From: Spirochaetota bacterium
GTDB lineage: Bacteria > Spirochaetota > UBA12135 > COTS27 > JAFLEE01
Length of the DNA: 64,000 bases
Assembly: GCA_017302015.1 (NCBI GenBank)
Contig: JAFLEE010000014.1
Coordinates: 5,097-69,096 of the forward strand
Reading direction: 5' to 3'
In this document: in pieces, positions 1,201-31,472 of the stretch
How the letters are laid out: each line of letters starts with the position of its first letter
How positions within the stretch are numbered: the first letter of the stretch is position 1
Program-made: the position numbers and the translations under genes
The notes under the pieces: model-generated
Databases searched by the model: none
Seen by the model: only the letters and a program-made list of their open reading frames with translations
Told to the model about the DNA's origin: nothing

Positions 1201-1282
1201 TGCATAATCAAGAATTACGCAAGTTTTCAGATACCCCGAGGGCAGCCTTTCCCCGACATCGACCGTATTCGGCCGAAACACC

Positions 1283-3353: not shown

Positions 3354-3407
3354 TGCGAACCATTGACTTTTATTAAGTGTATCAATACACTAAATACAGG
3401 AGTTCCC

Positions 3408-13423: not shown

Positions 13424-15856
13424 TCATTCCACGGCCAGCTCAAAGAACGGGGTGGGCCCCGCGTCCAGTTTCGAGGTATCCAAGGCGAGTTTTACCGTAT
13501 CCTTGGAGACGTTTTGGAAGTTCAGGCGACCTTTCCGAGAACCGTCGATGGCCAAGGCCCAGCCCCTAATCCGTGCGGCATCCGGATGTCGAAGGGTCAG
13601 CGTGAGGGCCACGGTCTGCATCAGCACCGGCAAGTTTCCCAGGTTCACCAAACTCACCCGGTCTTCCGAAACCTCGAAATCGCTGTTGAGCGCGTCGGTG
13701 TTCACCACGAGGAGCATGCGCCGGCACTGCGGGATGGGTTTGCCGTCCAGCGACGAGAGGGCGACGACGAGGTCTGACGGCGCGCCTTCGACCTCGAGGC
13801 AGGCGAACTTCGCGGCCTGGCCCTTTTTCAGGGCCGCCGCCTCCGTCCGGGGTGCCTGGACGAAGAGGGACCTTCGCGCGATGTCCATAAGGAGTTCGCC
13901 CGTTTCGGCCTGGAAAATACCCAGAGCCGCGCGGGTCCCGTTTGAAGGCCCCAGGATGGAGGCTTTTCGCAGTTCGGAGACCCACGCCTCGGCATCCGCG
14001 TATTGAAAGGCGCCGCCGTCGCCGCTGGCATGCGTGGTCAGGGTGAGCTCGCCCCCCGTCTGGGGGCTCAGGGTCAGCTGGGCCTCACGGGGACCTTTCA
14101 CCAGCGGGGGCCGCGGGCCCTCCCGATCGATGCCGAAGCGGCAGAGCAGCGAGAGCAGGCTCTGCGCGTCGCTGAGCTTCTTCTGCATGCTGTTGCTCTG
14201 CGTCAAGAAACCCTCGGTGAGCATGACCTTGGCGGTCTTCTCCGACGGGCGCACATCCCTTCGAGCGAAGAGCAGCGTCGCGAGGACCTCGTTGGCCCGT
14301 TGCACGGGGTCGCGGCCGATGAAGAAGGAACCCATGGGGTAGGCCACCCTCATGAGGACGGGTTGGCAATGGGCCACGAGGCCCGAAAATCCCTGGAACG
14401 AGGCGTAGGCGGGAAAGAGCAGGCCGGCTTCATGGCGCAGCCTACCCCAGTACGGAAAATTGTTCTCGGTGATGAACAGCGGCCGATCGACATAGCGCGC
14501 CTGCGCGGCTTTTCGGAAATAGGCCCCCCCGTTTTCGAGGGCGCCCTGTTGGGGGTTCTTCGTCCCCGGCGTATTGAAACCGGTGGGATGGTTGTGGTAG
14601 GTATGGAAGGCGACCACCGTGCTCTGGCCGCGCGCGGCTTGGTTGCGCAATCGCACGACCGTATCGTAGACATGGGTCAGGCCCTTGTAACCCAGCCCGC
14701 GGATGGTTCTCTCGTACCACGCCAACAGGTCTTCCTGCAACCCAAAAAGAAACAGGCCCGCATCGTTCCCACGGGCCTGGTCGTACTCGAGCGCGAATTT
14801 CTTATCGAAGGGGATGGCGTCGAAGGAAGCGAACGCGTCGGCCTGGTCGCCCCAGGCCTGCTTCAGGCGCTCGATGGATCCTGCGTACCGCTTACCCAAG
14901 AAATCACGCCATCGTTCGGCGGCGAGCGCCCTCAGTTCTTCCTTCTGGAACAGGCCCAATTCGGCGATGAGATCCTGCTCGTTCCAGAAGGTCAGCGAGA
15001 CGAGCGCCGCATCCTCCGCCAAGGAGAGGCCCGTATAGGGGTTGCGGTGCGTCAGGAGGGCCTCCGCGCCGAACGCCCAGGCTTTCCGGGCTTCCGGATC
15101 CAGGAGGAGCCTCTCCCGAAGCTGGCGTTGGTCCGCCTCGTCCCAGCGCCCCTTCAGGAAGCCGTTATGGTAGGCGAGATCGAGCGTGTAGTAGATGCCC
15201 GCCTCCCGCAGGCAGGACAGGAAAAAATCCAAGCGCTCCAGGTTCGTCTGATGGAGTTCTCCATCGCACTGCGCGCCGCTGCTTAAGATCATGTCGAGGT
15301 TCTGGAGGCGAAGCAGGTTGTAGCCTTGCCTTCGGATCGCCGTGACGTGGGCCCTCACATTGGCATGCTCCCCTTCCCGATCGGGGGCGAGCATGGAAAA
15401 TTCCAAGTAATTCCTATTTTTCTCGCTGAAGCCCCTCTCGTGGACGATCGAGTCGTAGCCAAAAAAACGCACTGGGGACCCCGGCGTGTTCTCGAAGGCG
15501 AAGCCGCCGTGGGGACCGACGACCACCCGGCCGTGTTTGCCGGCCGGGCCGATTTCCACGAGCGCGCTGAAATCGAGGGCCGAGCCGGCCTGGATGACCG
15601 TCGATGACATATCGACGGGTTTCCACTCGTCGCCCGCGGCGACTTTCCAGGCGTGAAGCGGGACGACCATGAGGAGGGTCCATAGGAAAAAGGAGCCCCG
15701 AACTCCCCAGTTGGGCGCGCCGGGGTTCGATTCCAAGCGGGACCTCAACACCGGCATCATCCATGCTCCTCTCAGTCGGGCGAAAAACGCGGCGAGCCCG
15801 ACGCCAAGGGGGGCGGCGCCTCGTGGGTACGCCTTTTTCGTTCCAGAGTTCATCAT
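13424..15856 (-). CDS. clan GH-A TIM-barrel glycoside hydrolase, probably secreted; start uncertain (possible internal start about 15760)
   Basis: 810-aa ORF with acid/base-like VSLTFWNEQDL and nucleophile-like LFITENNFPYWG motifs, spaced as in GH-A enzymes. Hydrophobic N-terminal region. Confidence 0.75.
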   Translation of the reverse strand: MMNSGTKKAYPRGAAPLGVGLAAFFARLRGAWMMPVLRSRLESNPGAPNWGVRGSFFLWTLLMVVPLHAWKVAAGDEWKPVDMSSTVIQAGSALDFSALVEIGPAGKHGRVVVGPHGGFAFENTPGSPVRFFGYDSIVHERGFSEKNRNYLEFSMLAPDREGEHANVRAHVTAIRRQGYNLLRLQNLDMILSSGAQCDGELHQTNLERLDFFLSCLREAGIYYTLDLAYHNGFLKGRWDEADQRQLRERLLLDPEARKAWAFGAEALLTHRNPYTGLSLAEDAALVSLTFWNEQDLIAELGLFQKEELRALAAERWRDFLGKRYAGSIERLKQAWGDQADAFASFDAIPFDKKFALEYDQARGNDAGLFLFGLQEDLLAWYERTIRGLGYKGLTHVYDTVVRLRNQAARGQSTVVAFHTYHNHPTGFNTPGTKNPQQGALENGGAYFRKAAQARYVDRPLFITENNFPYWGRLRHEAGLLFPAYASFQGFSGLVAHCQPVLMRVAYPMGSFFIGRDPVQRANEVLATLLFARRDVRPSEKTAKVMLTEGFLTQSNSMQKKLSDAQSLLSLLCRFGIDREGPRPPLVKGPREAQLTLSPQTGGELTLTTHASGDGGAFQYADAEAWVSELRKASILGPSNGTRAALGIFQAETGELLMDIARRSLFVQAPRTEAAALKKGQAAKFACLEVEGAPSDLVVALSSLDGKPIPQCRRMLLVVNTDALNSDFEVSEDRVSLVNLGNLPVLMQTVALTLTLRHPDAARIRGWALAIDGSRKGRLNFQNVSKDTVKLALDTSKLDAGPTPFFELAVE

Positions 15857-16347
15857 CGAAGTTCTCCGTGCTTTTAGAGTATGAAATCATCCCGAGAAAC
15901 AAGCAAGGCCACCCGATCCCCTGCGGCATGCCGGATAAGAGCCGGTTCACGAAAAGTTGAATCGCCACTTCCTTTGCTGGATGGTTCTTTTTCCGGGAAT
16001 GAATACTTGCAGAGGATGCATGATTGCAGCGAGAGCCTCACCGCGACATACAGATTCCAGGCGATGGGAGTTTCCTGACCGCTTCGATCGCAGCCTAAAA
16101 CGCCGCCGAGGCAGTTCGTCCGGGAGATCGCCCCTGGAGGCCGCCAACGCGCCCTCGATTAGAATCTGTCTACGGGCCCAAAATATTATAGTAGATTCGC
16201 GTAACGAATGGATGCCCATCCCCGTCGCGGGTCTTACACGGGGCCTATCGTGCGTGGGCTCATCCAGCCCCCACTCCATTTGTGGCTGGCTTGTGGACGA
16301 TCTGACACCGAAAGCCTGCCCGCGCTCCATGGGAAGCGATCCAGTCC

Positions 16348-16734
16348 TTAACCGGGCTCCTCGTGGAATCGCTGCCGGTAAGCCCGGGGGCCCAACCCCA
16401 CATGGCAATGGAACAGCAGAGAAAAATGGGGGTAGGTTTCGAAGCCGCATGCGGCGGCGATGCGCCCCTCGAGCTTGCGTGTCAGACGAAGGAGTCGCTG
16501 GGCGCGGTCGAACTGCTGTGTCAAGTGAGATCGGCGAGGGGGCAGCCCCATGGCGGCGTGGTAGAGCCTGATGAAATAGCTGGGGGCGAGGCCGTATTGG
16601 CCGGCGAGGGCCCCGTTCGCCGGGGTAAGTTGGGCCGTCCGGGGCCATAAATCGAGGCTGGCTTCGAAGGCCGGGCGCAATCCACCCAGATTCACCACCG
16701 GCGGCAGCAGCGGCCGTGGCACCGGGCATCCCAC
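16348..16734 (-). pseudogene. AraC-type HTH (C-terminal half) fragment
   Basis: 128-aa ORF, ...YGLAPSYFIRLYHAAMGLPPRRSHLTQQFDRAQRLLRLTRKLEGRIAAACGFETYPHFSLLFHCHVGLGPRAYRQRF. There is no N-terminal sensor domain. Confidence 0.45.
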
Positions 16735-16755
16735 GCGATGGCCCGCGTCGCCTCG

Positions 16756-17634
16756 TCAAGTCCTTGCCGAAATACGCCTTCGCGTCTCCGGGACTTCGGC
16801 CCCGCGCCAGCGGCCGGGGCTCGTTCCATAATGGCGGCGGAACACCTTGATGAAATACCCGGGCTCGTTGAACCCGCATTGGCGGGCGACTTCGGCGACG
16901 GGGATTTTCCCCGGGGCGAGAAGGGCGCAGGCCCGGCCCAGCCTGAGTTCATCGAGGTATTTATGGAACCCGAGGGAGCCGGCCTCGCGGAAGAGCCTCG
17001 AGATGTGGTCCGGGGATAACCCGAAGCTGCGCGCGACCGAGCTGCGGTTGATGGGAAGGTGGCAGCATTCCCTCATGTGCTCGCGGATGCTCTGGTAGAT
17101 CGAACCGGGGGGATTCGCCCACGCCGCGGCGCTTCCGTGGAACGCTTCGCGGGCCGTGCGCAGGATCACGTGGAAGAGGGCGAGGAGTAGCTCCGGGGAG
17201 CGCCCCTCGCGCTCGGCGGAAACCAAAGCGTTCAGGAGCCATTGCCCGTCGGCGCCCAGGGGGAAACCCGCGAGTTCCTGGTCCTGCGGATCGAGGCCTT
17301 CGGGGTCGGAAGGGGACCGATGGCCGAGGGTCCACCGCATGTCACGGGGAAGGAAGTGGATGCAGAACAAGGTGCGTGCGCTGGCGAAGGAACGGAGATT
17401 CCAGGCGCCGGTCCCTGCGAAAAAGGCGTCGCCCCGGACCAGACGGCGTTGGACCGGCCCCGAGCCCGATAAATACTGGATGGGCAGGGCGCCATGGAGG
17501 ACGATCTCCAAGTGGGGATGGCCGGGAAGCCAGGCCCCCGGTGGGGCCTCGCCGCGGCGGGCGACGAACACGCGTTTGATCCCGCCATTTTCCAGGAGGG
17601 CTTCGAGCGCCTTGAGAACCCGGGAATCGGCCAT
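16756..17634 (-). CDS. AraC family transcriptional regulator
   Basis: 292-aa ORF. C-terminal HTH_18: SVARSFGLSPDHISRLFREAGSLGFHKYLDELRLGRACALL...VAEVARQCGFNEPGYFIKVFRRHYGTSPGRWR. Confidence 0.85.
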   Translation of the reverse strand: MADSRVLKALEALLENGGIKRVFVARRGEAPPGAWLPGHPHLEIVLHGALPIQYLSGSGPVQRRLVRGDAFFAGTGAWNLRSFASARTLFCIHFLPRDMRWTLGHRSPSDPEGLDPQDQELAGFPLGADGQWLLNALVSAEREGRSPELLLALFHVILRTAREAFHGSAAAWANPPGSIYQSIREHMRECCHLPINRSSVARSFGLSPDHISRLFREAGSLGFHKYLDELRLGRACALLAPGKIPVAEVARQCGFNEPGYFIKVFRRHYGTSPGRWRGAEVPETRRRISART

Positions 17635-17756
17635 GTCGTATTTATACCATTACGGACTTATATTTCTTATTGTTTTTACGGTTAGAGCCGCCTATAATGA
17701 CGTATAAATACAATCGGCGAAGCGCGCATCGCGCTGGCCTCGACGGAGCATGACCC

Positions 17757-18893
17757 GTGCAGATCGACCACGCCTTCCCCGGCGGAAATATCCTCCTCGA
17801 AAAGATCGAGGGGGATGACGTCACCCTCCGGCAAGACCTGCGGGATACCGAGGGTTGGTGGTTCTATTGGTGTTTCCGGGTGCGGGGGGCGGCGGGGCGG
17901 ACGCTCCACTTCCATTTCCCGGATACCGGCGAGGCTTGGCAGAGCGTGATCGGGGTGCGCGGACCCGCGGTGAGCAGGGACGAGGGCCGCCATTGGAATT
18001 GGCTGGGGCGGGGATCCGCCTCGGATTTCTCGTTCACCTTCGGCGCGGATGACGACGCGGTCCGCTTCAGTTTCGCCATGCCCTACCAGGAGGATCGCCT
18101 CGAGCGCTTCCTCGACTGCCACGTTGGCCATCCGCGCCTGCGCCGCGAACGCCTTTGCCATTCGCGGAAAGGGCGCTCTGTGGAACGGCTCCATCTCGGC
18201 TGCCTCCACGGGGCGCCTCGTTACCGGGTGGCGCTCACCTGCCGCCACCACGCCTGCGAAATGATGGCGAGTTATTCCCTGGAGGGCCTTCTGGAAGAGA
18301 TCCTGGGCGATTCGGAAGCGGGGGCATGGCTTGGCGAGAACGTGGAGTTCCTCGCCATCCCCTTCGTCGACAAAGACGGCGTCGAAGACGGCGACCAGGG
18401 CAAAAGCCGCAAGCCCCACGACCATGCCCTGGATTACGGGGAGCATCGCCTCTACCCCGAGACTACCGCCCTCGCCGCCTTCCTTCCCGAATGGTCGCGG
18501 GGGAAACTCGCCATCGCCCTCGACCTGCATTGCCCCTCCATCCGCGGGCCGTTCCACGAAGACCTCATGTCGCCCGACCGCCTGCGGGATGCGGGCAATT
18601 GGGCGCGCACGGAAGATTTTTTCAGGGTCTTGGAGAAGGTACAGCAAGGCCCCCTGATTTTCAGGCTTGCCGACAGCCAGGCCTTCACGACCTGGACCGG
18701 CCCCGAGGGGCCGAAGGGACCTGTCGCGGGTCTCATCACTACCTGGGTGCGGACCTTGCCTGGCCTGCGCTTCGGCACCGCCCTCGAAATTCCCTACGCC
18801 AACGCCGGCGGGAAAGAGGTGAACCAGGAAAGCGCGACCGCTTTCGGCCGTGACCTAGCGCGGGCGTTGCATCGATATCTCGCCGACGGATGA
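17757..18893 (+). CDS. M14-family zinc carboxypeptidase-like protein
   Basis: 378-aa ORF with HxxE-like HHACEMMASYSLEG, FLAIPFVDKDGVEDGD and IALDLHCPS (DxHS-like), as in M14 peptidases. GTG start. Confidence 0.6.
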   Translation: MQIDHAFPGGNILLEKIEGDDVTLRQDLRDTEGWWFYWCFRVRGAAGRTLHFHFPDTGEAWQSVIGVRGPAVSRDEGRHWNWLGRGSASDFSFTFGADDDAVRFSFAMPYQEDRLERFLDCHVGHPRLRRERLCHSRKGRSVERLHLGCLHGAPRYRVALTCRHHACEMMASYSLEGLLEEILGDSEAGAWLGENVEFLAIPFVDKDGVEDGDQGKSRKPHDHALDYGEHRLYPETTALAAFLPEWSRGKLAIALDLHCPSIRGPFHEDLMSPDRLRDAGNWARTEDFFRVLEKVQQGPLIFRLADSQAFTTWTGPEGPKGPVAGLITTWVRTLPGLRFGTALEIPYANAGGKEVNQESATAFGRDLARALHRYLADG

Positions 18894-18894
18894 A

Positions 18895-19685
18895 ACGGAC
18901 CGCTTTCGCCGTGGGGAACGGCCTTGATGCGGGCGGTCCTCGTCGAGGACGCACTGCACCGCAACGAGGGGTAACTCACGCCTATGAAAACTTCCATCCC
19001 GCCCTCGTACCCAACCTGTCAGAAAGCCGGGTCATCGAATGGGCCCGGGCCTCGGAGCCCTAGCCCGCCGTCGAAGAGCGATTCATACGTTCGCGGCGCC
19101 ATCTGGAGACCCATGACCCCGAACCCCTGCGCCCCTCGGACCTCGCCGCGGTCGCGGGCCTGTCCGCCTCGCGTTTTTCAAGGGCCTTCCATGCCGCCTT
19201 CGGCGCCTCGCCCATCGAACACCTCATCCAGGTCCGACTGGAGGCGGCGCGCGAGAAACTCCTGTTCACGGTTTTTCCGACCCGCGGGATCGCCTTCGGA
19301 GTCGGTTTCCCCGACGCCCTCCATTTCTCTAAGGTTTTCACCCGCGCCAGGGTCGGGGGCTCCGGGCCTTCCAACGGGGCCAATAAACACCGAACGGGGC
19401 AGGATCTTCCATTTACCCGGCCGGGATGCCGGCCCATGCTTACCCCCGAACGGGAGGTGCTTCGTGAATCATGGCCCAATTCGGTCCATCGCCCTCACGG
19501 GGTCCTCATGCGGTTCAGTATCGGCGCGGAGAACAGGGCGTCCGGCCACCCGGAAAGCCTCTTCGGGAAGACCCTGGAGGAGGTCGGCAGAATGGGCGTC
19601 GGGCCGTCGATGGATTGCGCCATCCATGGGAACTACCTCTATTCCATCGGGGAAGGGAAACTCCGCATCTCCCGACACGCCTAGC
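18895..19685 (+). repeat. degraded duplicate copy (about 85-90% identity by eye, with indels and an internal stop) of 24610-25400
   Basis: Direct nucleotide comparison: gacgcactgcaccgcaacgaggggtaactcacgcctatgaaaacttccatcccgccctcgt... versus gacgccctgcaccgcatcgacggggaactcagcgcccatgaaaacttccatcccgccctcgt... The similarity continues through ...atgcttaccccc/ag aacgggaggtgc... and ...cacccggaaagcctcttcgggaagaccctggaggag... to ...ggaaactccgcatctcccgac. Copy A contains ccctagcc (stop) and deletions. Confidence 0.8.
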
Positions 19686-20132
19686 AAACAGTCGCTCCAA
19701 GATGCCTCACGATCCGCAAGGGCACTCTTTGAACTAGATCCCTTGTTTGCCGCATAAAGATCGACCTCGCGATATCCCTCGTGGTTTATTTTTAGACGGC
19801 CCGGCGATACGAGAATGCTTCGTGAATTTTCCTAGTCCAAAATCTAAACTATTTATACGCCCCTCGATCAGGGATCATTGGATAGCGTTTCCAGTCCAAA
19901 AAGAACAATCCGCACTCGCGTCCCGAGAACGATTTGAACCGAATTCTTGAATCATGATCCCAATCAATTTTTTGACATATCGAACGATGCACACAGCCCA
20001 CAAAATTCTCCAAGCCATCGATAAGGGATCGCGCCCAATCAAGGCGCAAAGCGCTCGTCGTCAGGGGGCCGTTCCTTTCATACCTCCTCGCTGAATACCG
20101 GCGCCGCAGTCCCGGCGGAAATTCGGATCGTT

Positions 20133-21224
20133 TCATGGATCTTCTTTCGCGACGAGGCGTTGCAAATCAATTAAATCATAACGGAAGACGCCTATCCCGT
20201 TGGACTCGGTGGGCCAATTGACATAAAGATATCGACCGTCCCTCGAAAAACTTGAATCGACGTGGATCCTCCTTTTCCAAACAAGGTCAACGTTGGTTGT
20301 CTCGTCCAATAGGAAATGTCTTCGGGTTCCTTTCGCTCCCGCATAGTCCAAGGAAAGGACCAAAGGCGAGGATCCATACCATGTCTCTCCGGCGATCCAC
20401 CTTCGATCGGGGGAGACTCCCGGATGACAGAGGTCCTTCTCGGTGCGGGCCACGGGTGGTCCGACCTGGACTCGGTCCAAGTCGAAAAGCGTACCACCGG
20501 CGTAGATCCTTTCATTGTCCCACCAGAAAGGGTGCGCTCCGGGGCCGGGGAAAAAACGGACCTCATTTCCATTGGTCGAAAAGGTGAAGGCGAATTCCGG
20601 CTTTTGGACCTTGACCCAAATGCGACCCCCCTTAGGGCTCCAATAGCGATGCCATATATTCTGGGGCACCGCGCCGCCCATCCTTTCCTTCCAATTGGAG
20701 AACGCCCCGATGTCGAGTATTTTCCGGGTCACGCCCGTGCGTGGATCGACGGTCCAGACATTCCCGTTTTCGAACGAACCGGTGAGGACCAAGCCTGTGC
20801 CGGGGTGGTAACTCACGGGTCCGCAGTTTCCACACGTGATCGTGCGTAAAATTTTTCCCGTCGCGCTTTCGCGAACCACGATCTCGTTGCTGGGGCCTCG
20901 GTGGACAAATGATTCCTCGCCGATCCACAGGGCCATGACCCCGGTGTGCGGGATCGCCTTGATGGCCTCCACAAGTACCCGAGGCTCGGAACCATCGAGA
21001 CGGGAGATCATCAGTTGCGCCGGTTTTTCTAAACCATCGGGCCATTGGACGAAAAGAATGTGACGCCCCTCCGGATCGTCAGGGAACTGGTTCCAGTGAT
21101 AAGCTTTTCGGGCATAGACGGCGGTGGAAACGGGGGTTTTTTGGACCACGGCGCCGCTCATTCGGATTTCAGTTCCTCCAAAAGCCGCGGACATCATGAA
21201 AAGGAGGGGCATCAGGCGCTTCAT
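20133..21224 (-). CDS. secreted beta-propeller-like hypothetical protein (lower-GC gene)
   Basis: 363-aa ORF with signal peptide MKRLMPLLFMMSAAFGG. Repeated WxxxGxxI / YxxxW strands. Noticeably lower GC than neighbours, and an AT-rich flank at 19700-20130. Confidence 0.7.
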   Translation of the reverse strand: MKRLMPLLFMMSAAFGGTEIRMSGAVVQKTPVSTAVYARKAYHWNQFPDDPEGRHILFVQWPDGLEKPAQLMISRLDGSEPRVLVEAIKAIPHTGVMALWIGEESFVHRGPSNEIVVRESATGKILRTITCGNCGPVSYHPGTGLVLTGSFENGNVWTVDPRTGVTRKILDIGAFSNWKERMGGAVPQNIWHRYWSPKGGRIWVKVQKPEFAFTFSTNGNEVRFFPGPGAHPFWWDNERIYAGGTLFDLDRVQVGPPVARTEKDLCHPGVSPDRRWIAGETWYGSSPLVLSLDYAGAKGTRRHFLLDETTNVDLVWKRRIHVDSSFSRDGRYLYVNWPTESNGIGVFRYDLIDLQRLVAKEDP

Positions 21225-21324
21225 GGATTTTCCTTTTTGGGTCTGGCCGTCTTTCCGTATTTTGCCTTTATGCTTCGGCGGATTTCAAGGATGCCCAACG
21301 TGTAACTGAGTCCTTCGATGGGGG

Positions 21325-22656
21325 TCATTCGGTCTTGCCGCTTGCTTCCCCCGCCGAATTCACAACGCTTCCGTCACCCATTCTCATGGGCTTTACCGCA
21401 TCCCAGAGGCGAGCCATGGCCAGCAGGGGGTTATGTCCCAAATAATCGCAGCAGGGCTGGTTGAATGGGGTCTGGGGTTTGCGTTCAAGATCCGCCTGGG
21501 AGCCGCGATCGGGATGGTAGAATTCCAAGATTTTTCCCGTTCGCTCAAACTGAAGCGCCGCGGAATCCAGTGCCCCTTCCAGAAGTTGCCGGGCTGCGTC
21601 TTCACGTTGATAGGCGCAGCATCCTTTTGCGACCCAAAAGACCATGCTATTCCAGACAGGGCCGCGCCACATGCGCAGCGTGAAGGCGGGCTCATCTCGT
21701 GAGACGGAGGGCAACGGGTGGGCGGTCAAGAATCTTTTTGGATTCAAGAGATGCTCGTCGATGAGCCGCTGGGCCTGGGCCGGGCTTGCGGCTCCTACCA
21801 CCATGGGCCAGAACCCATCGAAGCTGAGCGCTTTGCTCTTGCTGTCTCTTTCTATCCAGGCATCGAAAAAGAAACCAACCTCTTCGTGAAAGAGATGGTC
21901 CTGGATATACCGCTGTATTTTCGTTCGTTTCTCAGCGTATTCCCCCGCGGAAATGGAAAGTTTTTTTGACCATTCCTCAGCCGTCCGGTACAAAAGGAAG
22001 AGATGCGCGCTCGCATCGATGCAGGCCGCCTTTTGGTTTCGAACCTTGTCAAATCGCACCCCTTCATCGACACCGCTTTCCCATTCATGATCGAGGATGT
22101 CACGGTAGAAAAAGCCATCCCCCGCCTTCCGGTCCCGCTCAAACCACCCGATTTGACGGATTAATTTCCCATAGGTCTCCTCGCGTAAGCCTTCGTCCCC
22201 ACCAAGTAAAAGCAGCTCGTCCACCAAAATCGGCCAGAGGGGCGGGTGTGTCCACGTCTGTGGTTTCAGGTGGAAAGCGCCCTCGCGAACGTAGAGCACC
22301 CCGGGGAGCATCCCCGTTCCGTACTGGAGCGCCAGATAGTGCATCAGTTGCGACCGCGCATGCCCGGGGTTTTCCGGCAGCACATCGAGTGCCTGGTGGA
22401 TCGTATCCCAATGCCCAAATGCCGGGCCGTAGCAATAGCCGGGCCCAATCTCTTCCCAAGGGGTCATGAAAGGGGGCAATGGCGCCCGGATGCTTTTTTC
22501 ATGAAGATCCATCGTATATTTCAGGAGCGGCTGCCAACTGGCCTTCCCCGGGAACGGGGTGGGACGGTTTAAGTGCATGGGTGTTTTCTCGGGTCCGTTC
22601 ATCTGGGTTTCCATGTGGAAAGGATGGGAATAAAGAGATCTCACGGGTATATCCAT
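21325..22656 (-). CDS. six-hairpin (alpha/alpha)6 glycoside hydrolase, GH63 / trehalase-like superfamily; start uncertain
   Basis: 443-aa ORF, ...FDGFWPMVVGAASPAQAQRLIDEHLLNPKRFLTAHPLPSVSRDEPAFTLRMWRGPVWNSMVFWV..., typical of GH63/GH37/GH100-type barrels. Confidence 0.65.
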   Translation of the reverse strand: MDIPVRSLYSHPFHMETQMNGPEKTPMHLNRPTPFPGKASWQPLLKYTMDLHEKSIRAPLPPFMTPWEEIGPGYCYGPAFGHWDTIHQALDVLPENPGHARSQLMHYLALQYGTGMLPGVLYVREGAFHLKPQTWTHPPLWPILVDELLLLGGDEGLREETYGKLIRQIGWFERDRKAGDGFFYRDILDHEWESGVDEGVRFDKVRNQKAACIDASAHLFLLYRTAEEWSKKLSISAGEYAEKRTKIQRYIQDHLFHEEVGFFFDAWIERDSKSKALSFDGFWPMVVGAASPAQAQRLIDEHLLNPKRFLTAHPLPSVSRDEPAFTLRMWRGPVWNSMVFWVAKGCCAYQREDAARQLLEGALDSAALQFERTGKILEFYHPDRGSQADLERKPQTPFNQPCCDYLGHNPLLAMARLWDAVKPMRMGDGSVVNSAGEASGKTE

Positions 22657-22710
22657 TTGAACACATCATACCTATAATTAACGTATTCTCCTCCCCGCCG
22701 GGGGCACGGC

Positions 22711-23484
22711 ATGAGCATCGGACGGCCCTTCACCTGCTATTACTGGAAAGTCGATCGGCGTTATACCTTCCGGGCCCATTCCCATAGCGATCGCTATGAG
22801 CTCATCGTGGGCCTCACGGGTGAACTGACCCTTGCCATCGCCGACCGTTCTTGGAAAATCGCCCCCGGTCGTATCCTGCTGTTATCACCGGGAACCCATC
22901 ACGGGATTTGGAAGACCGGGAGCCTCGACACCACCTATTTCAACGCCACCTTTGCGGGGTCGGATCGCCTCTTCCACGAGCTCGCCCAGCGGGGCCCCCT
23001 CCAAATCCCAAAAAATTGCGACGCCTTTTGGCTGCGCCGGGAGACGCGGGACCGGGTGCAATACCTCAACCCGGCGAGCGAGGCCTGGCTCATGGGCAAA
23101 ATCTACGCGTTGTGCGCCGAGCTGGTGCTGTTCTCGAATTCCCGCTCGGCGTTGTCAGAAAAGAAAGTAGCCCCGGGTCATTTTGGGGAGCGCCTCCAAG
23201 CCCTCGTGGAGAGCCAGCCGGACCAGCTTCACCGGCGCAAGCACCTTGCGGCCTATTTCGGCTTCACCGACGCCGGCCTCTCCATGAGAGCCAAGCGGAG
23301 CACGGGGCATCCGCTGATGAAACTCTATGATCAAGTCAAGTGCGCCCAGGCCAGGCGTTTTCTCCAGAGGGGTTTTTCGGTCAAAGCGACCGCCGAAGCT
23401 TGCGGGTTTGCCAACGCATTCCATTTCAGTCGCAAGTTCAAGTCCGTCTTTGGCCTTCGTCCGTCCCAAATCCGGGAGGAATAA
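22711..23484 (+). CDS. AraC family transcriptional regulator (cupin sensor + HTH)
   Basis: 257-aa ORF. N-terminal cupin-like HSHSDRYELIVGLTGEL; C-terminal HTH ...VKATAEACGFANAFHFSRKFKSVFGLRPSQIREE. Confidence 0.85.
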   Translation: MSIGRPFTCYYWKVDRRYTFRAHSHSDRYELIVGLTGELTLAIADRSWKIAPGRILLLSPGTHHGIWKTGSLDTTYFNATFAGSDRLFHELAQRGPLQIPKNCDAFWLRRETRDRVQYLNPASEAWLMGKIYALCAELVLFSNSRSALSEKKVAPGHFGERLQALVESQPDQLHRRKHLAAYFGFTDAGLSMRAKRSTGHPLMKLYDQVKCAQARRFLQRGFSVKATAEACGFANAFHFSRKFKSVFGLRPSQIREE

Positions 23485-23771
23485 AGGGGATAGGGCACTC
23501 GGCATTTTCCCGACCGTCCTGCTATTTGCGCCTCATAGAGAGACCGAGGCGCCAAGCTTTCGCCTTTCCCGATACCTTCGACGATTTCGGTATCGCCCGT
23601 TTCGAACACGGGTGCTGGGCCGCGGTTGCCGATCGCGTATCATTGCGGCTCCAAGGAGCAGGCGTGTCAGCGCCATCCTCTCGCCCCCGGATTCCCCGGC
23701 AGTTCTCCATCATGGCCATTTCCATGATCGTGACGTCTGAGGCGCCGCTTCGCAGCCTCTTCCCACCGGCC

Positions 23772-23995
23772 TTCATGGGGACGGGCTGGCAATGGGCCAC
23801 GGGGCCCGAAAAATCCTGGAACGAAGCGCGGGCGGGAAACAGCAGGCCAGCTTCGGGGCGCAGCTTTCCCCAGTACGGAAAATGGTTCTCGGTGATGAAC
23901 ATCTGCCGATCGATATGGCGCGACCGCGGAATGCGGGCAAACGGGCGCGTACGGAAGATTTTTTCCGGGTCCTGGAGAAGGTTCAGCAATGCCCC
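23772..23995 (+). repeat. mosaic of two abutting short duplicated gene fragments (from 14351-14510 of the GH gene and 18587-18653 of the M14 gene)
   Basis: 23772-23925 (tcatggggacgggctggcaatgggccacggggcccgaaaaatcctggaacgaagcg...cagtacggaaaatggttctcggtgatgaacat) parallels 14351-14510. 23928-23995 (ggaatgcgggcaaacgggcgcgtacggaagattttttccgggtcctggagaaggttcagcaatgcccc) parallels 18587-18653. Confidence 0.75.
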
Positions 23996-24297
23996 GGCCA
24001 AATGGCCGCGATCTTCCTACCAGAAGAGGGCGGCTTCGACCTCAGGATAGCGTCCGGTGTACGGGCCCTCGGCCTCCGACGATTCCACCCCTTTGAGAAC
24101 CGACGACACCTTGTTCTATAATTGGCGAATCGCCTGGCCCATCCGTTGGAAATGCCCCAAGAATTTTTTTTCGCCCCGTCGGCACCGGTTCGACCGCTTG
24201 CCGGCTATCATTCCCTAGCGCCATCGCGTCCCGCCATGGGGACCGCCCACGACCGCCGATTTGCGAGAAGGATCCCGGCGGGGTAGAGTATCTGTCC

Positions 24298-25104
24298 ATG
24301 CGCCGCCAGTACCGTGTCTACTTGCCGGAGAACCGTCCCGATTCGGGCTCCCTCGCCGTCATGTCCCTCGGGCATTTCCAGCGCGAGTCGTTCTTCCGTT
24401 ATCCCCATGGCCACCCCGCCTGGGCCTTCGTTTATTTCGAGACGGCGGTGACGGTGCTCCTCGGCGGCGCCAAGCGACAGATCGCCGGCGGCCACGCGGT
24501 CGTCTTCCCGCCTTCGCGGCCCCTCTTCTACGGCCATGAGAAGGGCTTCCGCCAGCGCTTCCTTTGCGTCCGCGGCCCCGAACTCGCCCCATGGGCGAAG
24601 GCCCACCGGCTCCCCATCGAGGCGCCCATCCCCTGCCCCTCCGCGGCCCTCTTCGCGGACGCCCTGCACCGCATCGACGGGGAACTCAGCGCCCATGAAA
24701 ACTTCCATCCCGCCCTCGTGCGCAACCTGGTGGAGAACCTGGTCATCGAATTGGCCCGAGCCTCAGAGCCCCGTCCCGCCCCCGCCATCGATGAGCGACT
24801 ACTCCGTGCACGGCGCCATCTGGAGACCCATTACCCCGAACCTCTGCGCCTCTCGGACCTCGCCGCGGTCGCGGGCCTGTCCGCCTCGCGCTTTTCCCGG
24901 GCCTTCCATGCCGCCTTCGGCGCCTCGCCCATCGAACTCCTCATCCAGGTCCGACTGGAGGCTGCGCGCGAGAAACTCCTGTCCTCGGACTTACCGATCC
25001 GCGAGATCGCCTTCGAGGTCGGCTTCCCCGACGCCCTCCATTTCTCGAAGGTTTTCACCCAGCGCCAGGGTCAGGGGCCCCGGGCCTTTCGGCGGGGCAA
25101 ATAA
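24298..25104 (+). CDS. AraC family transcriptional regulator
   Basis: 268-aa ORF. HTH ...LSDLAAVAGLSASRFSRAFHAAFGASPIELLIQVRLEAAREKLLSSDLPIREIAFEVGFPDALHFSKVFTQRQGQGPRAFRR. Confidence 0.85.
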   Translation: MRRQYRVYLPENRPDSGSLAVMSLGHFQRESFFRYPHGHPAWAFVYFETAVTVLLGGAKRQIAGGHAVVFPPSRPLFYGHEKGFRQRFLCVRGPELAPWAKAHRLPIEAPIPCPSAALFADALHRIDGELSAHENFHPALVRNLVENLVIELARASEPRPAPAIDERLLRARRHLETHYPEPLRLSDLAAVAGLSASRFSRAFHAAFGASPIELLIQVRLEAAREKLLSSDLPIREIAFEVGFPDALHFSKVFTQRQGQGPRAFRRGK

Positions 25105-25400
25105 ACACCGAACGGGGCAGGATCTTCCATTTACCTGGACGGGATGCCGGCCTATGCTTACCCCAGAACGGGAGGTGCCTCGTGAACCATGGCCGAATGA
25201 ATTGCATCGCCCTCACGGGGGCCCTCATGCTGTTCGGCATCGGCGCGGAGAATACGGCGCCCGGCCACCCGGAAAGCCTCTTCGGGAAGACCCTGGAGGA
25301 GATCGGCAGAATGGGCGTCGGGCCGTCGATGGACTGCGCCGTCGACGGGAATTACCTCTATTCCATCGGGGACGGAAAACTCCGCATCTCCCGACTCGAC
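24610..25400 (+). repeat. intact source copy of the segment duplicated at 18895-19685 (spans the AraC 3' end, the intergenic promoter and the 5' end of the LVIVD gene)
   Basis: See the feature at 18895-19685. This copy keeps both reading frames open. Confidence 0.8.
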
Positions 25401-27215
25401 GATCCGGCCCGCCCCGCCCTCGTTTCGACCCTGACCGAGCTCGGTAATACCCGGCAGATCGATGTTGCCAAAGGCATCGCCTACATCACCTCCCGGGAAG
25501 ACGGCCTATTTCTCGTGGACGTCTCCGATCCGCTGAAACCGGCGATCCTTTGCCAGTACGACACGATCGAATTGGCGACGGGGATCGCGGTGGCTGGGAA
25601 TCTCGCCTACATCGCCTGCCGTTCCATCGGTGTCGAACTCGTTGACGTGGCCGATCCCCGCAAACCCAGGCATCTGAGTTCGGTCCGCACGGGCGAGGCC
25701 CAATCCCTCGCCGTGCGGGATGGCGTCCTCTACGTCGGCGTCTGGGGTTCCCGCGAACTCGTGGTGTGCGATGTGGGCGATCCGTGGTCCCCCCGCGTCC
25801 TCTCCAAGACCCCGTTGGACGGCTTCGGCGATGGGGTCGATGTGCGGGGCAAGTATTGCTTCGTCGCCACGGGCCACCACGCGCGCTCCCTCAGGAAGCA
25901 CGACGCTTCGGACCCCGGATTCGGCGCCGGCCATGGCCTCGAATGCTATGACGTCTCGGATCCCGCGAAGCCGGTCCTCGTCTCGCGGGTCAAACTCCCC
26001 AGGCTCTACTCCCTCGGGAACGACATGTGGGACGTCCAGGTGTCGGGGCCCTACGCGTTCGTGGGAGATACCTATAACGGCGTCTTCGCGGTGGAGGTTT
26101 CCGACCCATCGCGCATGCGCTTCGCCGGGCACCGCCAACTCGACTGGGTCGCGGCGCGCAAGCAATTCGGTTTCGTCGGCGGCTTCGCCATCGGGAAGGG
26201 CTGCCTCTATGTCGCCGGCGGGTCCACCGACCTCCACGTCATCGCCGCGGCGGGGATGGCGGTTCCCCAGATCCGGGAGACCGGCTGGGCCCCCGCGATC
26301 CCGCCGGAGCCGGATTCGCCGGATGCGCGCTTCCACCGCTATGCCGCGGGGGGCCAAGTCTATGCCGTCGCGATTTCGGGATCGACCGCGTTCGCCGCGG
26401 CGGGCGCCGCCGGCTTGCACGTGTTGGACTTAGGCGGGGGGGGCCTCGCTCGCCGCGCGGTGGTAGAGACGGGGGGATTCGCCCTGGATGTGAAGATCAG
26501 GGGCGACCTCATCCTGACCGCCGAAGGGAAGGGAGGTCTCGTGATCTCCCGTTGGCAAGACGACCGGATGGAGTTCCTCGGGCGCTACCGCGACGGGAAT
26601 CTACCGGTCAAGCAGGTGGTGCCCGTCCCCAACTCGCCCTACGTGCTCCTGCAGGTCGGCGGATCCCAGATGCAGGTGGTGGACATCTCGGATCCGAAGC
26701 GGCCGAACTTCGTGTATCGCGACAAACGCACGGGACTACTATACGGCTACCAGATCAGCGAAGGCGCGCTGGAGGACCGGTGGGGCCTCTGTTTCTGGCA
26801 TGTCAGCGGGTTCCATTGGTACGACCTGAAGACGGGCGGAGTTCCCGCCTACGGGGGCAATTTCCAACTCAATATGAGCCCCGCCGACGGCGCGGTCTTC
26901 ATCGACGGAGGCGCCCTGGCCATCGCGCGCGGGGGTTATTTCATCCTCCGCCCGGGGGAGTTCGCGCCCGCGGATGGCGTGAAGCCCCTCACCCTCGCCG
27001 GCCATCCCCTCTCCGGGAAGCCGAGCCTCTACGGCAAGACGCTCTACCTCGCGGATCGTTTCTCGGGGATGGTGCAGGTGGTCGACATCGAATCCCTGGA
27101 AAAACCCAGTTGGCGGCGTTCGTTCGAACTTCCCGGGAATCCGGGGGCGGTCCGGGAGTTCCGCGGAAAACTCGTCATCCCCGCGGGTTATCAGGGCTTG
27201 CTCCTTGAAAAATAG
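25182..27215 (+). CDS. secreted LVIVD-repeat beta-propeller protein
   Basis: 677-aa ORF. N-terminal hydrophobic MNCIALTGALMLFGIGA. Repeated units of the LVIVD type: YAYITSREDGLFLVDVSDPLKP, LAYIACRSIGVELVDVADPRKP, YAFVGDTYNGVFAVEVSDPS, MQVVDISDPKRP. Confidence 0.8.
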   Translation: MNHGRMNCIALTGALMLFGIGAENTAPGHPESLFGKTLEEIGRMGVGPSMDCAVDGNYLYSIGDGKLRISRLDDPARPALVSTLTELGNTRQIDVAKGIAYITSREDGLFLVDVSDPLKPAILCQYDTIELATGIAVAGNLAYIACRSIGVELVDVADPRKPRHLSSVRTGEAQSLAVRDGVLYVGVWGSRELVVCDVGDPWSPRVLSKTPLDGFGDGVDVRGKYCFVATGHHARSLRKHDASDPGFGAGHGLECYDVSDPAKPVLVSRVKLPRLYSLGNDMWDVQVSGPYAFVGDTYNGVFAVEVSDPSRMRFAGHRQLDWVAARKQFGFVGGFAIGKGCLYVAGGSTDLHVIAAAGMAVPQIRETGWAPAIPPEPDSPDARFHRYAAGGQVYAVAISGSTAFAAAGAAGLHVLDLGGGGLARRAVVETGGFALDVKIRGDLILTAEGKGGLVISRWQDDRMEFLGRYRDGNLPVKQVVPVPNSPYVLLQVGGSQMQVVDISDPKRPNFVYRDKRTGLLYGYQISEGALEDRWGLCFWHVSGFHWYDLKTGGVPAYGGNFQLNMSPADGAVFIDGGALAIARGGYFILRPGEFAPADGVKPLTLAGHPLSGKPSLYGKTLYLADRFSGMVQVVDIESLEKPSWRRSFELPGNPGAVREFRGKLVIPAGYQGLLLEK

Positions 27216-30300: not shown

Positions 30301-31472
30301 TCCTGGAAAGCCGAGAAGGGCGTGGCTTATTGTTCGAGAATTCTGTCGGAAAAGGCCGGGTGCGCTACCTCGCCGCCGCCCCCGCGGGCACCTGGGGGCG
30401 CGCGGCCATGGACCGCGCCTTGGCGGGAACCACCCGCATGGGGGAACTCCTCCAAACCAACGGCACGCGGCTGGCCCAGAGCGAAATCCAGTCTATCGAC
30501 CGCGGCGACACCCGATTGTTCTACGCCGTGGCCTGGGGGCCCGAACCCCAACGCGCCCGTATGCGCCTATTCCAAACGCCCGGGGACCCTTTTTACATCG
30601 TCGACTGGGTGGCCGGCGAGGCGTACCCCTCGCCTTCTGGGAAACTCGCCTGGACGAAGTCAGAGGCATCCAACGGCATCGAGCTGATCCTGCCTTCCCA
30701 GACGCGCGCGGTGATCCTCGCCCAGCGCGAAGAGCCCAAAGGGCTCCCCTGGGTCCGCCCGGCGGCCCTCGACGCGCGCTTCGAGAAGGCCCGGCGCGAG
30801 GAGGCCGCCTGGAAGGCGGGGAGCAAATCCGATCTCGAGGACCGCGACCGCAAGGCCGCCGAAGCCAGGCGCTACGAGGGGGTGCGGGAAGCGAAATGCT
30901 TTGCCATCGATCTTTCGCGCCAGGCCAATATGGGATTCCGCGACGAGGTGGAGGGCGACAAGAAAGGCGGCTGGTTCGACCAAGGGGCCAACGACCTGCG
31001 GGCCATGGCGCCCGGGCGGCGTACCTTCTCGGGGGTGCCATTCCAGATCCTGGATCCCGGGGAGCACGATGGGAAAGCCGTGCTCGTGCTCGGGGGGAAA
31101 CCGAGGGCCTACCTGCCCGAGCGGGCGACGGGGATCCCGGTGGGGCGCCCCGCGTCGCGGTTCTATTTCCTCCACACCGCGGGCTGGGACGATGGGGGCG
31201 CCGTCCTCTCCTACATCATCCGCTACGAAGGGGGGTCCTTCCTCGAGGTCCCGGTGCGCTTTGGCGTGGAGATCGGGGGCTGGTGGGGCCCGAAGGAACT
31301 TCCCTCCGCGAAGATCGCCTTCGAATGCGCCAACGCCGTCTGCCCGCGCGTCGGGCTTTATTGCTTCCGATGGGAAAACCCGAAACCCGGGTTGAAAGTG
31401 GCCTCGATCGACGTGGTGTCCGCCATGGGGGGCGCCGTCCCCGCGGTCGTCGCCATCACCGGGGAGGAATGA
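27360..31472 (+). CDS. 1370-aa secreted multidomain glycosidase: N-terminal CBM4/9-like module + GH42-like beta-galactosidase catalytic and trimerisation-like domains
   Basis: Signal peptide MTVRSILCILSLFALAAAV (GTG 27360). CBM-like NGSFEQ...GWT...HGGGSSLHL. GH42-like core VYELFNESSYQCRCRYNRAAFAVRLRARWGSIAAANEAWKSRFADFDQ (NE acid/base + Cys cluster + LN.AW motif). Confidence 0.8.
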   Translation: MTVRSILCILSLFALAAAVEPVPIALPNGSFEQDAWDGDRGLPTGWTPAPMNEFAICALDPTTRHGGGSSLHLKDAHTGQANEGLSYALPPKQVEAVLGKTLRLRGWVRQKFSKTGGNVFLGIMVKTRDQRWILQKAGPDGEGESPWGEYAVRHAIPRNAELVRIVLACAQGWGNMAEAWFDDLSMAYEETEAPVARAKSGSRVDVYDDSFPSQWRKASWGGLTVEETEIDPLEGSKRLRVRAAAGTKAYSGWRIFTEAINRMASFTAYRENGGYLEFAVRPMPPIQVAWIAEKGAAPPVPIRDYASPLERGWTRVRIPLQKLMRPEGGERLAGLMFQCSAAPEGEETSFDSMAIACDRENLAAPTALPEGIRAALEAIEGPAVPFTRDDFERPEIREGTFYWKGRPHFFAGPWHYDNDTDFKGPATHREGYGAAGYGETVLDAAQAKTLGFTSLQLSSAPNTPLILGLDGPIIPRDIERTQFYPGFLKGLSGMPFVLDYAWIWGLEKLDLVGEGRLPADILQQNRGWHAFIPFCPEHPKGREIYRRYFQSGVRSARANGGNPFVYELFNESSYQCRCRYNRAAFAVRLRARWGSIAAANEAWKSRFADFDQAAATEPLEKCPGLFVDWLQFTGDRYVEVLEEGKKAIRELDGRPRVYFTEQASIPNYLSASGASMDYRKIAAALDLVCVEGGVPFGSSRQTKALSDFEAVIDNQGIQYSLYLDMATALAKGKPVVNHELYCGRFEDGLRVPSRRSDLLTSLWNEMIHGSSASYFYVWDKRSFDWKTPEEAKQNVLQGGYKAFSLLNPYAYPAQAHLGIRDFHDEMERLGALVLPGKRIRGRVGFLISYASLRQAAITQAPTLRLARELYQTILESHLPLEVVYEEDFTAKAPFEAVVAPFLDHRLEQTPARLTGFAEAGGLVVVSAGALGFDEYGRPEDASGLLGVRRGESRLTATWGSGDPVQSLKETYDATPLTAKVLLESREGRGLLFENSVGKGRVRYLAAAPAGTWGRAAMDRALAGTTRMGELLQTNGTRLAQSEIQSIDRGDTRLFYAVAWGPEPQRARMRLFQTPGDPFYIVDWVAGEAYPSPSGKLAWTKSEASNGIELILPSQTRAVILAQREEPKGLPWVRPAALDARFEKARREEAAWKAGSKSDLEDRDRKAAEARRYEGVREAKCFAIDLSRQANMGFRDEVEGDKKGGWFDQGANDLRAMAPGRRTFSGVPFQILDPGEHDGKAVLVLGGKPRAYLPERATGIPVGRPASRFYFLHTAGWDDGGAVLSYIIRYEGGSFLEVPVRFGVEIGGWWGPKELPSAKIAFECANAVCPRVGLYCFRWENPKPGLKVASIDVVSAMGGAVPAVVAITGEE

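What the first reader, a model, noticed from the sequence alone, without database searches (positions are those of the whole stretch)
23772..23995. Mosaic recombination scar: two unrelated gene fragments fused at an 8-bp microhomology
The region between the AraC genes at 22711 and 24298 contains two short directly repeated fragments abutting each other: 23772-23925, a copy of 14351-14510 from the GH-A glycosidase gene, and 23928-23995, a copy of 18587-18653 from the M14 peptidase gene. At the junction the GH source reads ...catagcgcgcctgcgcgg and the peptidase source reads ...gaccgcctgcgggatgcgggc; both share cgcctgcg, and the copy reads atggcgcgaccgcggaatgcgggc. This is consistent with microhomology-mediated template switching or illegitimate recombination. 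Neither fragment is in a coding context here, so this is non-coding debris documenting past rearrangement of the locus.
Basis: seen in the sequence. Interest (0 to 1): 0.55.

Follow-up and report, generated by a model that had tools for sequence, protein, structure and literature searches.

The report
Deletion scar in decayed duplicate block
The two abutting gene fragments are real: they are the decayed leftovers of a second copy of a neighbouring 5-kb gene block, joined where about 4 kb was deleted between two 8-base repeats, which is an ordinary kind of bacterial genome debris.

Summary
Window 23770-23922 matches 14347-14499 (153 bp, 86.9%, E 6e-45). Window 23926-23995 matches 18584-18653 (70 bp, 88.6%, E 8e-19). 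Both alignments are ungapped and +/+. The 8-mer CGCCTGCG occurs in both sources, and both alignments place it on the same 8 bases of the copy (23921-23928). The chance of 8 or more shared bases at a random junction in this window is 3e-4.

Window 18933-19676 matches 24643-25395 (753 bp, 88.2%). It covers the second half of the AraC gene at 24298 and the start of the next gene.

Two copies of a block of at least 5.3 kb therefore exist (GH, AraC, M14, AraC, LVIVD protein). Each gene is intact in only one copy. The two copies flank a low-GC 4-kb insert.

The scar is best read as a 4,081-bp deletion between 8-bp direct repeats inside the second copy. It is not a fusion of two separately copied pieces. 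All remnants look neutral: mismatches are spread over the codon positions, and the larger remnant carries frameshifts and stops.

A near-identical metagenome contig lacks the whole region, so it varies between strains.

This is an ordinary phenomenon and of low interest.

The parts
23770..23922 (-). Pseudogene fragment of the GH-A glycosidase. It corresponds to residues ~453-503 of the 810-aa reading and includes the FITEN motif with the family's invariant Glu, the presumed catalytic nucleophile.
   Evidence: BLASTN 86.9% over 153 bp to 14347-14499. tblastn to the GH protein, 5.5e-21. Mismatches by codon position are 5/8/7.
23921..23928 (.). Deletion junction. This is the single retained copy of the 8-bp repeat and now reads CGACCGCG.
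   Evidence: Both ungapped alignments place the source 8-mer CGCCTGCG on these positions. P(8 or more bases by chance) = 3.3e-4.
23926..23995 (+). Pseudogene fragment of the M14-like carboxypeptidase (residues ~276-299).
   Evidence: BLASTN 88.6% over 70 bp to 18584-18653. tblastn 80% over 25 aa.
14347..14499 (-). Intact counterpart of the GH fragment, inside the GH-A gene 13424-15856 (minus strand). The 8-mer CGCCTGCG lies at 14498-14505.
   Evidence: Family assignment.
18579..18653 (+). Intact counterpart of the M14 fragment, inside the M14-like gene 17757-18893 (plus strand). It begins with the 8-mer CGCCTGCG at 18579-18586.
   Evidence: M14 assignment.
14506..18586 (.). The stretch whose equivalent was deleted from the second copy (4,081 bp). 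It holds the 5' ~56% of the GH gene, a stand-alone AraC HTH ORF, the AraC gene 16756-17634 (minus strand) and the first ~276 codons of the M14 gene.
   Evidence: Distance between the two 8-mers. Gene content.
18933..19676 (+). Reciprocal relic in the first copy. It is a dead copy of AraC2 codons ~116-268, the intergenic spacer and the first ~71 codons of the LVIVD-repeat protein.
   Evidence: BLASTN 88.2% over 753 bp to 24643-25395. Frameshifts and in-frame stops are present, and mismatches by codon position are 12/16/21 and 6/6/10.
24643..25395 (+). Intact counterpart of that relic: the 3' part of AraC2 (24298-25104) and the 5' part of the LVIVD-repeat gene (25182-27215).
19677..23769 (.). 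Block lying between the two copies. It is low-GC (0.50-0.60 against 0.63-0.69 in the flanks). It holds an unassigned 363-aa ORF (minus strand), an MGH1/GH63-like hydrolase at 21325-22656 (minus strand), AraC1 at 22711-23484 (plus strand) and 285 bp of unassigned spacer.
   Evidence: Composition profile. Pfam. No terminal repeats found.
23996..24242 (.). Unassigned 247 bp between the scar and the point where the related contig L001 becomes collinear (24243). It contains a promoter-like site at 24093-24122 (plus strand).

Best explanation
The 226-bp segment is what remains of part of a second copy of a contiguous block of at least 5.3 kb. The block ran: GH-A glycosidase (minus strand), AraC (minus), M14-like carboxypeptidase (plus), AraC2 (plus), LVIVD-repeat protein (plus).

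Both copies once existed in the same order and orientation, on either side of the low-GC block at 19.7-23.8 kb. Because the genes were redundant, each copy decayed in a complementary way. The left copy kept the GH, AraC and M14 genes and lost most of AraC2 and the LVIVD gene. The right copy kept AraC2 and the LVIVD gene and lost the rest.

The junction at 23921-23928 is one of those losses. The repeat CGCCTGCG occurred once in the GH gene and once, 4,081 bp away, in the M14 gene. Short-homology-dependent illegitimate recombination between the two removed everything in between and kept one repeat. The mechanism could be replication slippage, or microhomology-mediated end joining after a break.

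The remnants have since drifted neutrally to about 12% divergence. They have no function.

What is shown: the three collinear repeats, their equal divergence, the in-register 8-mer, and the neutral decay. What is inferred: that the right copy was once complete, which enzymatic route made the deletion, and where the second copy came from.
For: 1. Three repeats map monotonically and in the same orientation: 14347->23770, 18584->23926 and 18933->24643. Their identities are indistinguishable (86.9, 88.6 and 88.2%).

2. The 8-mer is present in both sources and is in register in both ungapped alignments. The chance value is 3.3e-4. There are 118 direct 8-mer pairs between the two genes, so substrates for such a deletion are abundant.

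3. The pattern of retention is complementary. tblastn shows AraC2 residues 128-261 and LVIVD-protein residues 13-71 as a dead copy right after the M14 gene, with frameshifts and stops. The GH and M14 pieces sit right before the intact AraC2.

4. The substitution pattern is neutral (5/8/7 and 5/0/3 by codon position).

5. All four outer edges of the repeats are abrupt.

6. The window's own genes are by far the closest known relatives of the fragments. The GH piece is 79% identical to the window's GH and at most 66% to any other homologue. The M14 piece is 80% identical to the window's M14 and at most 52% to any other.

7. The region is strain-variable. Contig L001 is 98-100% identical across the part of the GH coding sequence it holds (14772-15671) and from 24243 onward, but it carries ADH and HxlR genes in place of 16714-24242. 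Rearrangement at this locus is therefore ongoing.
Against: No genome with an intact right-hand copy was found, so the former contiguity of the two fragments is inferred and not observed.

The low-GC block sits exactly at the join of the two copies. This needs either an extra event or a one-step integration model.

Deletion by slippage falls off steeply with the distance between short repeats (reference 38 of PMC2884548, known to me only from its title there). A 4-kb deletion on 8 bp would therefore be a rare event by that route.

Two of the eight junction bases differ from the presumed repeat.

The sequence is a short-read MAG contig, and I could not inspect read support.
Confidence: 0.7

Rival explanations
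1. Patch insertion by serial template switching (MMBIR/FoSTeS-like, the reader's first option). A stalled 3' end in the AraC1-AraC2 spacer copied 153 bp from the GH gene. It then jumped on the 8-bp microhomology to the M14 gene, copied 70 bp and returned. No full second copy ever existed.
For: The junction sequence is equally compatible with this reading. The fragments are short, and no intact second copy is known.
Against: This model does not explain the third repeat in the reciprocal position with the same divergence. It does not explain the strict collinearity of all three blocks, roughly a 1 in 24 chance for three independent pieces. It would need a second, mirror-image event of the same age. 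Microhomology at the outer edges cannot be checked, because the acceptor sequence is unknown.
Confidence: 0.15
2. Assembly artefact. The MAG contig is a chimera that joins reads from different strains or loci at this point.
For: The window comes from a metagenome-assembled genome. A near-identical strain with a different arrangement exists in another sample.
Against: The longest exact matches between the fragments and their sources are 17 and 15 bp. These are shorter than the k-mers assemblers normally use (21 or more, from my own knowledge). An 8-bp overlap cannot join contigs. Assemblers do not create copies that are 12% diverged. Both copies sit on one contig, each with its own unique flanks.
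Confidence: 0.03
3. A functional element. Read-through from AraC1 on the plus strand would carry 153 nt antisense to the GH mRNA (87% complementary) and could regulate it. Alternatively, the 159-codon or 109-codon open frames could encode a small chimeric protein.
For: No terminator-like site lies between AraC1 and the scar. An ORF of 159 codons keeps the GH frame open.
Against: There is no Rfam hit and no Pfam hit for any ORF in the spacer. Mismatches are evenly spread over codon positions. The longest perfect complementarity is only 17 nt. The whole region is missing from a near-identical strain.
Confidence: 0.03

Closest known systems
Short-homology-dependent illegitimate recombination: RecA-independent deletion between short direct repeats, by replication slippage or alternative end joining. 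PMC2884548 and PMC5426353 discuss it; the classic lacI deletion work is from my own knowledge.
   Same: The two parental sites share a short direct repeat (8 bp). One repeat is retained and the intervening DNA is lost. The repeat is far below the ~30 bp that PMC2884548 cites as the threshold for RecA-dependent recombination in E. coli.
   Different: The parental, undeleted copy is inferred from a paralogous copy and not observed. The distance (4.1 kb) is long for slippage. The enzymatic route is unknown in this uncultivated organism.
Decay of redundant genes after segmental duplication: deletional bias in bacterial genomes, and reciprocal gene loss after duplication (from my own knowledge of that literature).
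   Same: Two collinear copies of equal age, with every gene left intact in exactly one copy. The remnants carry frameshifts, stops and internal deletions.
   Different: The copies are separated by a 4-kb low-GC block instead of being strictly tandem. The block may have been imported and not duplicated in place.
Homology-facilitated illegitimate recombination (HFIR) during uptake of foreign DNA (de Vries & Wackernagel 2002, as described in PMC2884548).
   Same: Compared with contig L001, the variable segment has one border inside homologous sequence, where identity decays from 100% to 80%, and one abrupt border without homology at 24243. That is the pattern HFIR gives.
   Different: This concerns the replacement of the whole 7.5-kb segment between strains, not the 8-bp junction itself. 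Which strain is derived is unknown.
Microhomology-mediated break-induced replication / FoSTeS template switching.
   Same: Microhomology at a junction between segments copied from non-adjacent templates.
   Different: The collinear three-block pattern with reciprocal relics is explained more simply by deletions in a full copy. No inverted or out-of-order segment is present, although such segments are typical of serial template switching.

Membership tests
Deletion between short direct repeats (short-homology-dependent illegitimate recombination) | Both parental breakpoints carry the same short sequence in direct orientation | tested here: met
   CGCCTGCG lies at 14498-14505 and at 18579-18586, on the same strand.
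Deletion between short direct repeats (short-homology-dependent illegitimate recombination) | Exactly one copy of the repeat remains at the junction, in register with both flanks | tested here: met
   Both ungapped alignments overlap on 23921-23928 (CGACCGCG, 6 of 8 bases). The chance of this is 3.3e-4.
Deletion between short direct repeats (short-homology-dependent illegitimate recombination) | The two flanks were previously contiguous on one molecule, separated by the lost segment | tested here: inconclusive
   The order, orientation and equal divergence of the three blocks support this. No intact second copy was found in any collection.
Deletion between short direct repeats (short-homology-dependent illegitimate recombination) | Independence from RecA / origin in replication slippage or end joining | not testable with these tools
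   This needs genetics in the organism or a model host.
Segmental duplication with complementary decay | Two or more collinear, same-orientation blocks of similar divergence | tested here: met
   Three blocks at 86.9, 88.6 and 88.2% identity, all +/+, in monotonic order.
Segmental duplication with complementary decay | Each gene is intact in only one copy, and the other copy is disabled | tested here: met
   GH, AraC3 and M14 are intact only on the left. AraC2 and the LVIVD-repeat gene are intact only on the right. The dead copies are truncated, and the larger one carries frameshifts and stops.
Segmental duplication with complementary decay | The copies arose within the same genome, not by import | tested here: inconclusive
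   The window's own genes are the closest known relatives of the fragments. However, a low-GC block lies between the copies, and no outgroup is close enough to date the split.
Assembly chimera | The join coincides with an exact repeat at least as long as the assembler's k-mer | tested here: not met
   The longest exact runs shared with the sources are 17 and 15 bp, and the junction overlap is 8 bp.
Clan GH-A glycoside hydrolase (source gene 13424-15856) | Sequence similarity to GH-A families, with a conserved Asn-Glu (acid/base) and a second Glu (nucleophile) | tested here: met
   The family profile hits GH5 mannanases (2e-13) and GH42 enzymes. N260/E261 and E432 are invariant in 29 homologues. 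The single sequence has no Pfam hit. Fold and activity were not tested.
Peptidase M14 (source gene 17757-18893) | Sequence similarity to M14 carboxypeptidases | tested here: met
   PDB 4a37 at 1.8e-10 and 3l2n at 6.8e-9. The Pfam M14 and M14_N hits are just below the curated cut-offs. Zinc ligands were not checked.

The most novel reading that the evidence does not exclude
The two copies were not made by duplication in place. They are the footprint of a single integration event. A circular or linear piece of DNA from a related organism carried the low-GC hydrolase/AraC1 cassette plus a ~5.3-kb homeologous copy of the resident locus. It recombined into that locus and produced copy-cassette-copy. 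The resident and incoming genes then decayed reciprocally, so the present operon is a patchwork of native and foreign genes. The scar would then be a dated record of how homology-guided gene import is tidied up in an uncultivated Spirochaetota lineage.
Probability: 0.3. Interest if true: 0.35.

Novelty: new member of a known kind. Interest (0 to 1): 0.2.

Why it matters
The scar is a clean, well-delimited natural example of two textbook processes: deletion at a short direct repeat, and complementary loss of redundant genes after a block is doubled. It occurs in an uncultivated bacterium and in a locus that differs between near-identical strains.

Its practical value is for annotation. The spacer between the two AraC genes, and the stretch at 18933-19676, are pseudogene debris and should not be called as genes.

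It does not reveal a new mechanism or a new kind of element.

Tried and rejected
Chance similarity is rejected: the E-values are 6e-45 and 8e-19.

An RNA element in the spacer was sought with Rfam at E up to 1 on 23300-24500. Nothing was found.

Protein families were sought for every ORF in the spacer. There were none.

I looked for a closer relative of the fragments, or an intact second copy, in several ways:
- The scan of GTDB species genomes with the M14 protein gave at best 68% identity.
- The JGI metagenome scan used a concatenated query (GH C-terminal half plus M14). Only M14 relatives of 59% identity or less were returned, and no GH relatives made the list.
- The protein database search with the GH gave the MAG's own protein and then 54% or less.
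- Exact-protein look-ups for the M14, AraC1, GH, AraC3 proteins and P0001 found nothing on record. Only AraC2 gave a contig, L001.

L001 stops at the position equivalent to 14772, so it cannot show its own version of 14347-14499.

For the origin of the low-GC block, the closest GH63-like homologues are 57% identical or less and are spread over several phyla, which is uninformative. No terminal direct or inverted repeats bound the block.

I considered models based on a tandem duplication that included the low-GC block. They need more events than a copy-cassette-copy origin, so I did not adopt them.

Full report
OBSERVATION

I read the three stretches and aligned the window against itself. The spacer between the AraC-family genes at 22711-23484 and 24298-25104 (Pfam) contains two abutting, ungapped, plus/plus matches.
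- 23770-23922 matches 14347-14499 (153 bp, 86.9%, E 6e-45).
- 23926-23995 matches 18584-18653 (70 bp, 88.6%, E 8e-19).

Every junction string it quoted is present.

The 8-mer CGCCTGCG lies at 14498-14505 and at 18579-18586. With the two alignment offsets (9423 and 5342), both 8-mers fall on the same copy positions, 23921-23928. That stretch now reads CGACCGCG. In 2 million random junction pairs from this window, in-register identity of 8 bases or more occurred at a frequency of 3.3e-4.

THE SOURCE GENES

The first source lies in an 810-codon ORF on the minus strand (13424-15856).
- It has no Pfam hit of its own and no sequence match in the PDB.
- Its database homologues sometimes carry GH5 or GH42 Pfam domains.
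- An alignment of 29 homologues has an invariant Asn-Glu pair and a second invariant Glu.
- The profile built from that alignment hits GH5 mannanases (2e-13) and GH42 beta-galactosidases.
- 'Clan GH-A' is therefore supported. The copied piece includes the FITEN motif with the second invariant Glu.

The second source lies in a plus-strand gene (17757-18893). This gene matches M14 carboxypeptidase structures (4a37, 1.8e-10). Its Pfam hits sit just under the curated cut-offs.

Between the two source genes lie a minus-strand AraC gene (16756-17634) and a stand-alone AraC HTH ORF (16348-16734).

The GH fragment is therefore 'sense' on the minus strand and the M14 fragment is 'sense' on the plus strand. 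That is the same relative orientation the two genes have at their source.

The self-alignment shows a third and larger repeat: 18933-19676 matches 24643-25395 (753 bp, 88.2%, 9 gap positions by megablast).
- The right-hand member is the 3' part of the intact AraC2 gene, the spacer after it, and the first ~71 codons of the intact LVIVD-repeat gene at 25182-27215.
- The left-hand member sits 39 bp after the stop codon of the M14 gene. It is dead: it has single-base deletions, in-frame stops, and mismatches spread 12/16/21 and 6/6/10 over the codon positions.

The three repeats map in the same order and orientation (14347->23770, 18584->23926, 18933->24643), and their divergence is indistinguishable. 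All four outer edges are abrupt.

Two copies of one block therefore exist: GH, AraC, M14, AraC2, LVIVD protein. The block spans at least 14347-19676.
- The left copy has the GH, AraC and M14 genes intact and AraC2/LVIVD dead.
- The right copy has AraC2 and the LVIVD gene intact, and only 226 bp of GH and M14 left.

The mismatches in those 226 bp are spread 5/8/7 and 5/0/3 over the codon positions. This is neutral drift.

MECHANISM

Given a once-complete right-hand copy, the junction is a 4,081-bp deletion (18579 minus 14498) between two direct 8-mers, with one 8-mer retained. This is the signature of short-homology-dependent illegitimate recombination, by replication slippage or by microhomology-mediated end joining after a break.

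PMC2884548 reviews the process. It notes that repeats below about 30 bp are too short for RecA-dependent recombination in E. coli. It cites work whose title states that deletion frequency falls exponentially with the distance between repeats. PMC5426353 gives experimental RecA-independent examples.

There are 118 direct 8-mer pairs between the two genes, so substrates are plentiful. The enzymatic route cannot be decided from sequence.

At least two further deletions are needed to reach the present state. One runs from M14 codon ~300 to somewhere upstream of AraC2 in the right copy. The other runs from 39 bp past the M14 stop codon to AraC2 codon ~115 in the left copy.

ORIGIN OF THE SECOND COPY (UNRESOLVED)

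The two copies are not adjacent. Between them lies 19677-23769, which holds an unassigned ORF, an MGH1/GH63-like hydrolase and AraC1. Its GC content is 0.50-0.60, against 0.63-0.69 in the flanks. It has no terminal repeats.

There are two possibilities. The block was duplicated and the low-GC cassette was inserted at the join. Alternatively, one integration of DNA carrying both the cassette and a homeologous copy of the locus produced copy-cassette-copy in a single step.

The window's own genes are by far the closest known relatives of the fragments. The GH piece is 79% identical to the window's GH and 66% or less to others. The M14 piece is 80% identical to the window's M14 and 52% or less to others. 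No collection held a close enough outgroup to settle the question.

STRAIN COMPARISON

The window is from an NCBI MAG labelled 'Spirochaetes bacterium'. The only close relative recovered is a JGI contig, L001.
- It is 98-100% identical to the window across the part of the GH coding sequence it holds (14772-15671) and from 24243 onward.
- Its identity falls to 80-91% across 15672-16333.
- It carries 4.1 kb of ADH and HxlR genes in place of window 16714-24242.

The scar therefore lies inside a strain-variable segment. The segment's left border is a gradient of homology and its right border is abrupt, 55 bp before the AraC2 start codon. Homology-facilitated illegitimate recombination gives this pattern (PMC2884548).

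Which arrangement is ancestral is unknown. L001 ends before the position of the GH fragment's source, so it cannot show its own version of 14347-14499.

RIVAL EXPLANATIONS

- Serial template switching that copied two short pieces fits the junction itself. It does not fit the reciprocal third repeat of equal age or the collinearity.
- An assembly chimera is unlikely. The fragments share at most 17 and 15 exact bases with their sources, and the junction overlap is 8 bp. These are too short to mislead an assembler, and diverged copies are not made by assemblers. Read support could not be checked.
- A functional role, as an antisense RNA to the GH mRNA or as a small chimeric ORF, has no support. 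There is no Rfam hit and no Pfam hit. The substitution pattern is neutral. The region is absent from a near-identical strain.

VERDICT

It is better described as an internal deletion scar in the degenerate second copy of a doubled gene block than as a fusion of two independently captured pieces. Such debris is a known and common outcome of bacterial genome dynamics. Interest is low (0.2). It is a new instance of a known kind.

Noticed in passing
window 18933-19676 (counterpart 24643-25395): A 753-bp dead copy (88.2%) of the 3' part of AraC2, the spacer and the 5' end of the LVIVD-repeat gene lies 39 bp after the M14 stop codon. It carries frameshifts and in-frame stops. The spurious ORF 18984-19757 overlaps it out of frame.
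   Followed up: yes
window 16348-16734 (minus strand): A 128-aa ORF consists only of an AraC-type HTH_18 domain (Pfam 1.4e-10). It lies largely within a 288-bp stretch (16334-16621) that is absent from the related contig L001. It may be another truncated regulator relic or a stand-alone DNA-binding protein.
   Followed up: partly
window 16714-24242 against L001 1653-5745: A near-identical strain (JGI Ga0310364_1479925) has zinc alcohol dehydrogenase and HxlR genes where the window has 7.5 kb. The left border is a homology gradient (100% falling to 80%) and the right border is abrupt at 24243. This resembles homology-facilitated illegitimate recombination.
   Followed up: partly
window 19677-23484: A low-GC block (0.50-0.60 against 0.63-0.69 in the flanks) lies exactly between the two repeat copies. 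It holds an unassigned 363-aa ORF, an MGH1/GH63-like hydrolase and AraC1. The closest GH63-like homologues are 57% identical or less and are spread over several phyla.
   Followed up: partly
window 24093-24122 (plus strand): A strong sigma-70-like site, TTGAGA-18 nt-TATAAT (11 of 12 bases), lies ~175 bp upstream of the AraC2 start codon. It is inside the 247 bp that the related strain lacks, so the two strains may drive AraC2 from different promoters.
   Followed up: no
window 6854-8044 (minus strand): An IS256/Mutator-family transposase gene (Pfam Transposase_mut, 4e-107) lies about 6 kb upstream of the GH gene.
   Followed up: no
window 1311-1357 and 1981-2027: An imperfect 47-bp inverted repeat (83%) whose arms are about 620 bp apart. 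Its nature was not examined.
   Followed up: no
L003 (MAG bin.579, JABMPG010000589.1) 720-5133: The closest genome with M14-like relatives has a minus-strand AraC gene followed by two tandem M14-like paralogues (60% and 64% identical to the window protein). Divergent AraC-M14 pairing and local duplication of this gene therefore recur in relatives.
   Followed up: no
window 30843-31142 and 34143-34742: Identity between the window and L001 dips locally to 93-97% within an alignment that is otherwise ~99-100% identical. This suggests small recombination tracts or variable patches in the GH42-like gene and in the sulfatase/AraC region.
   Followed up: no
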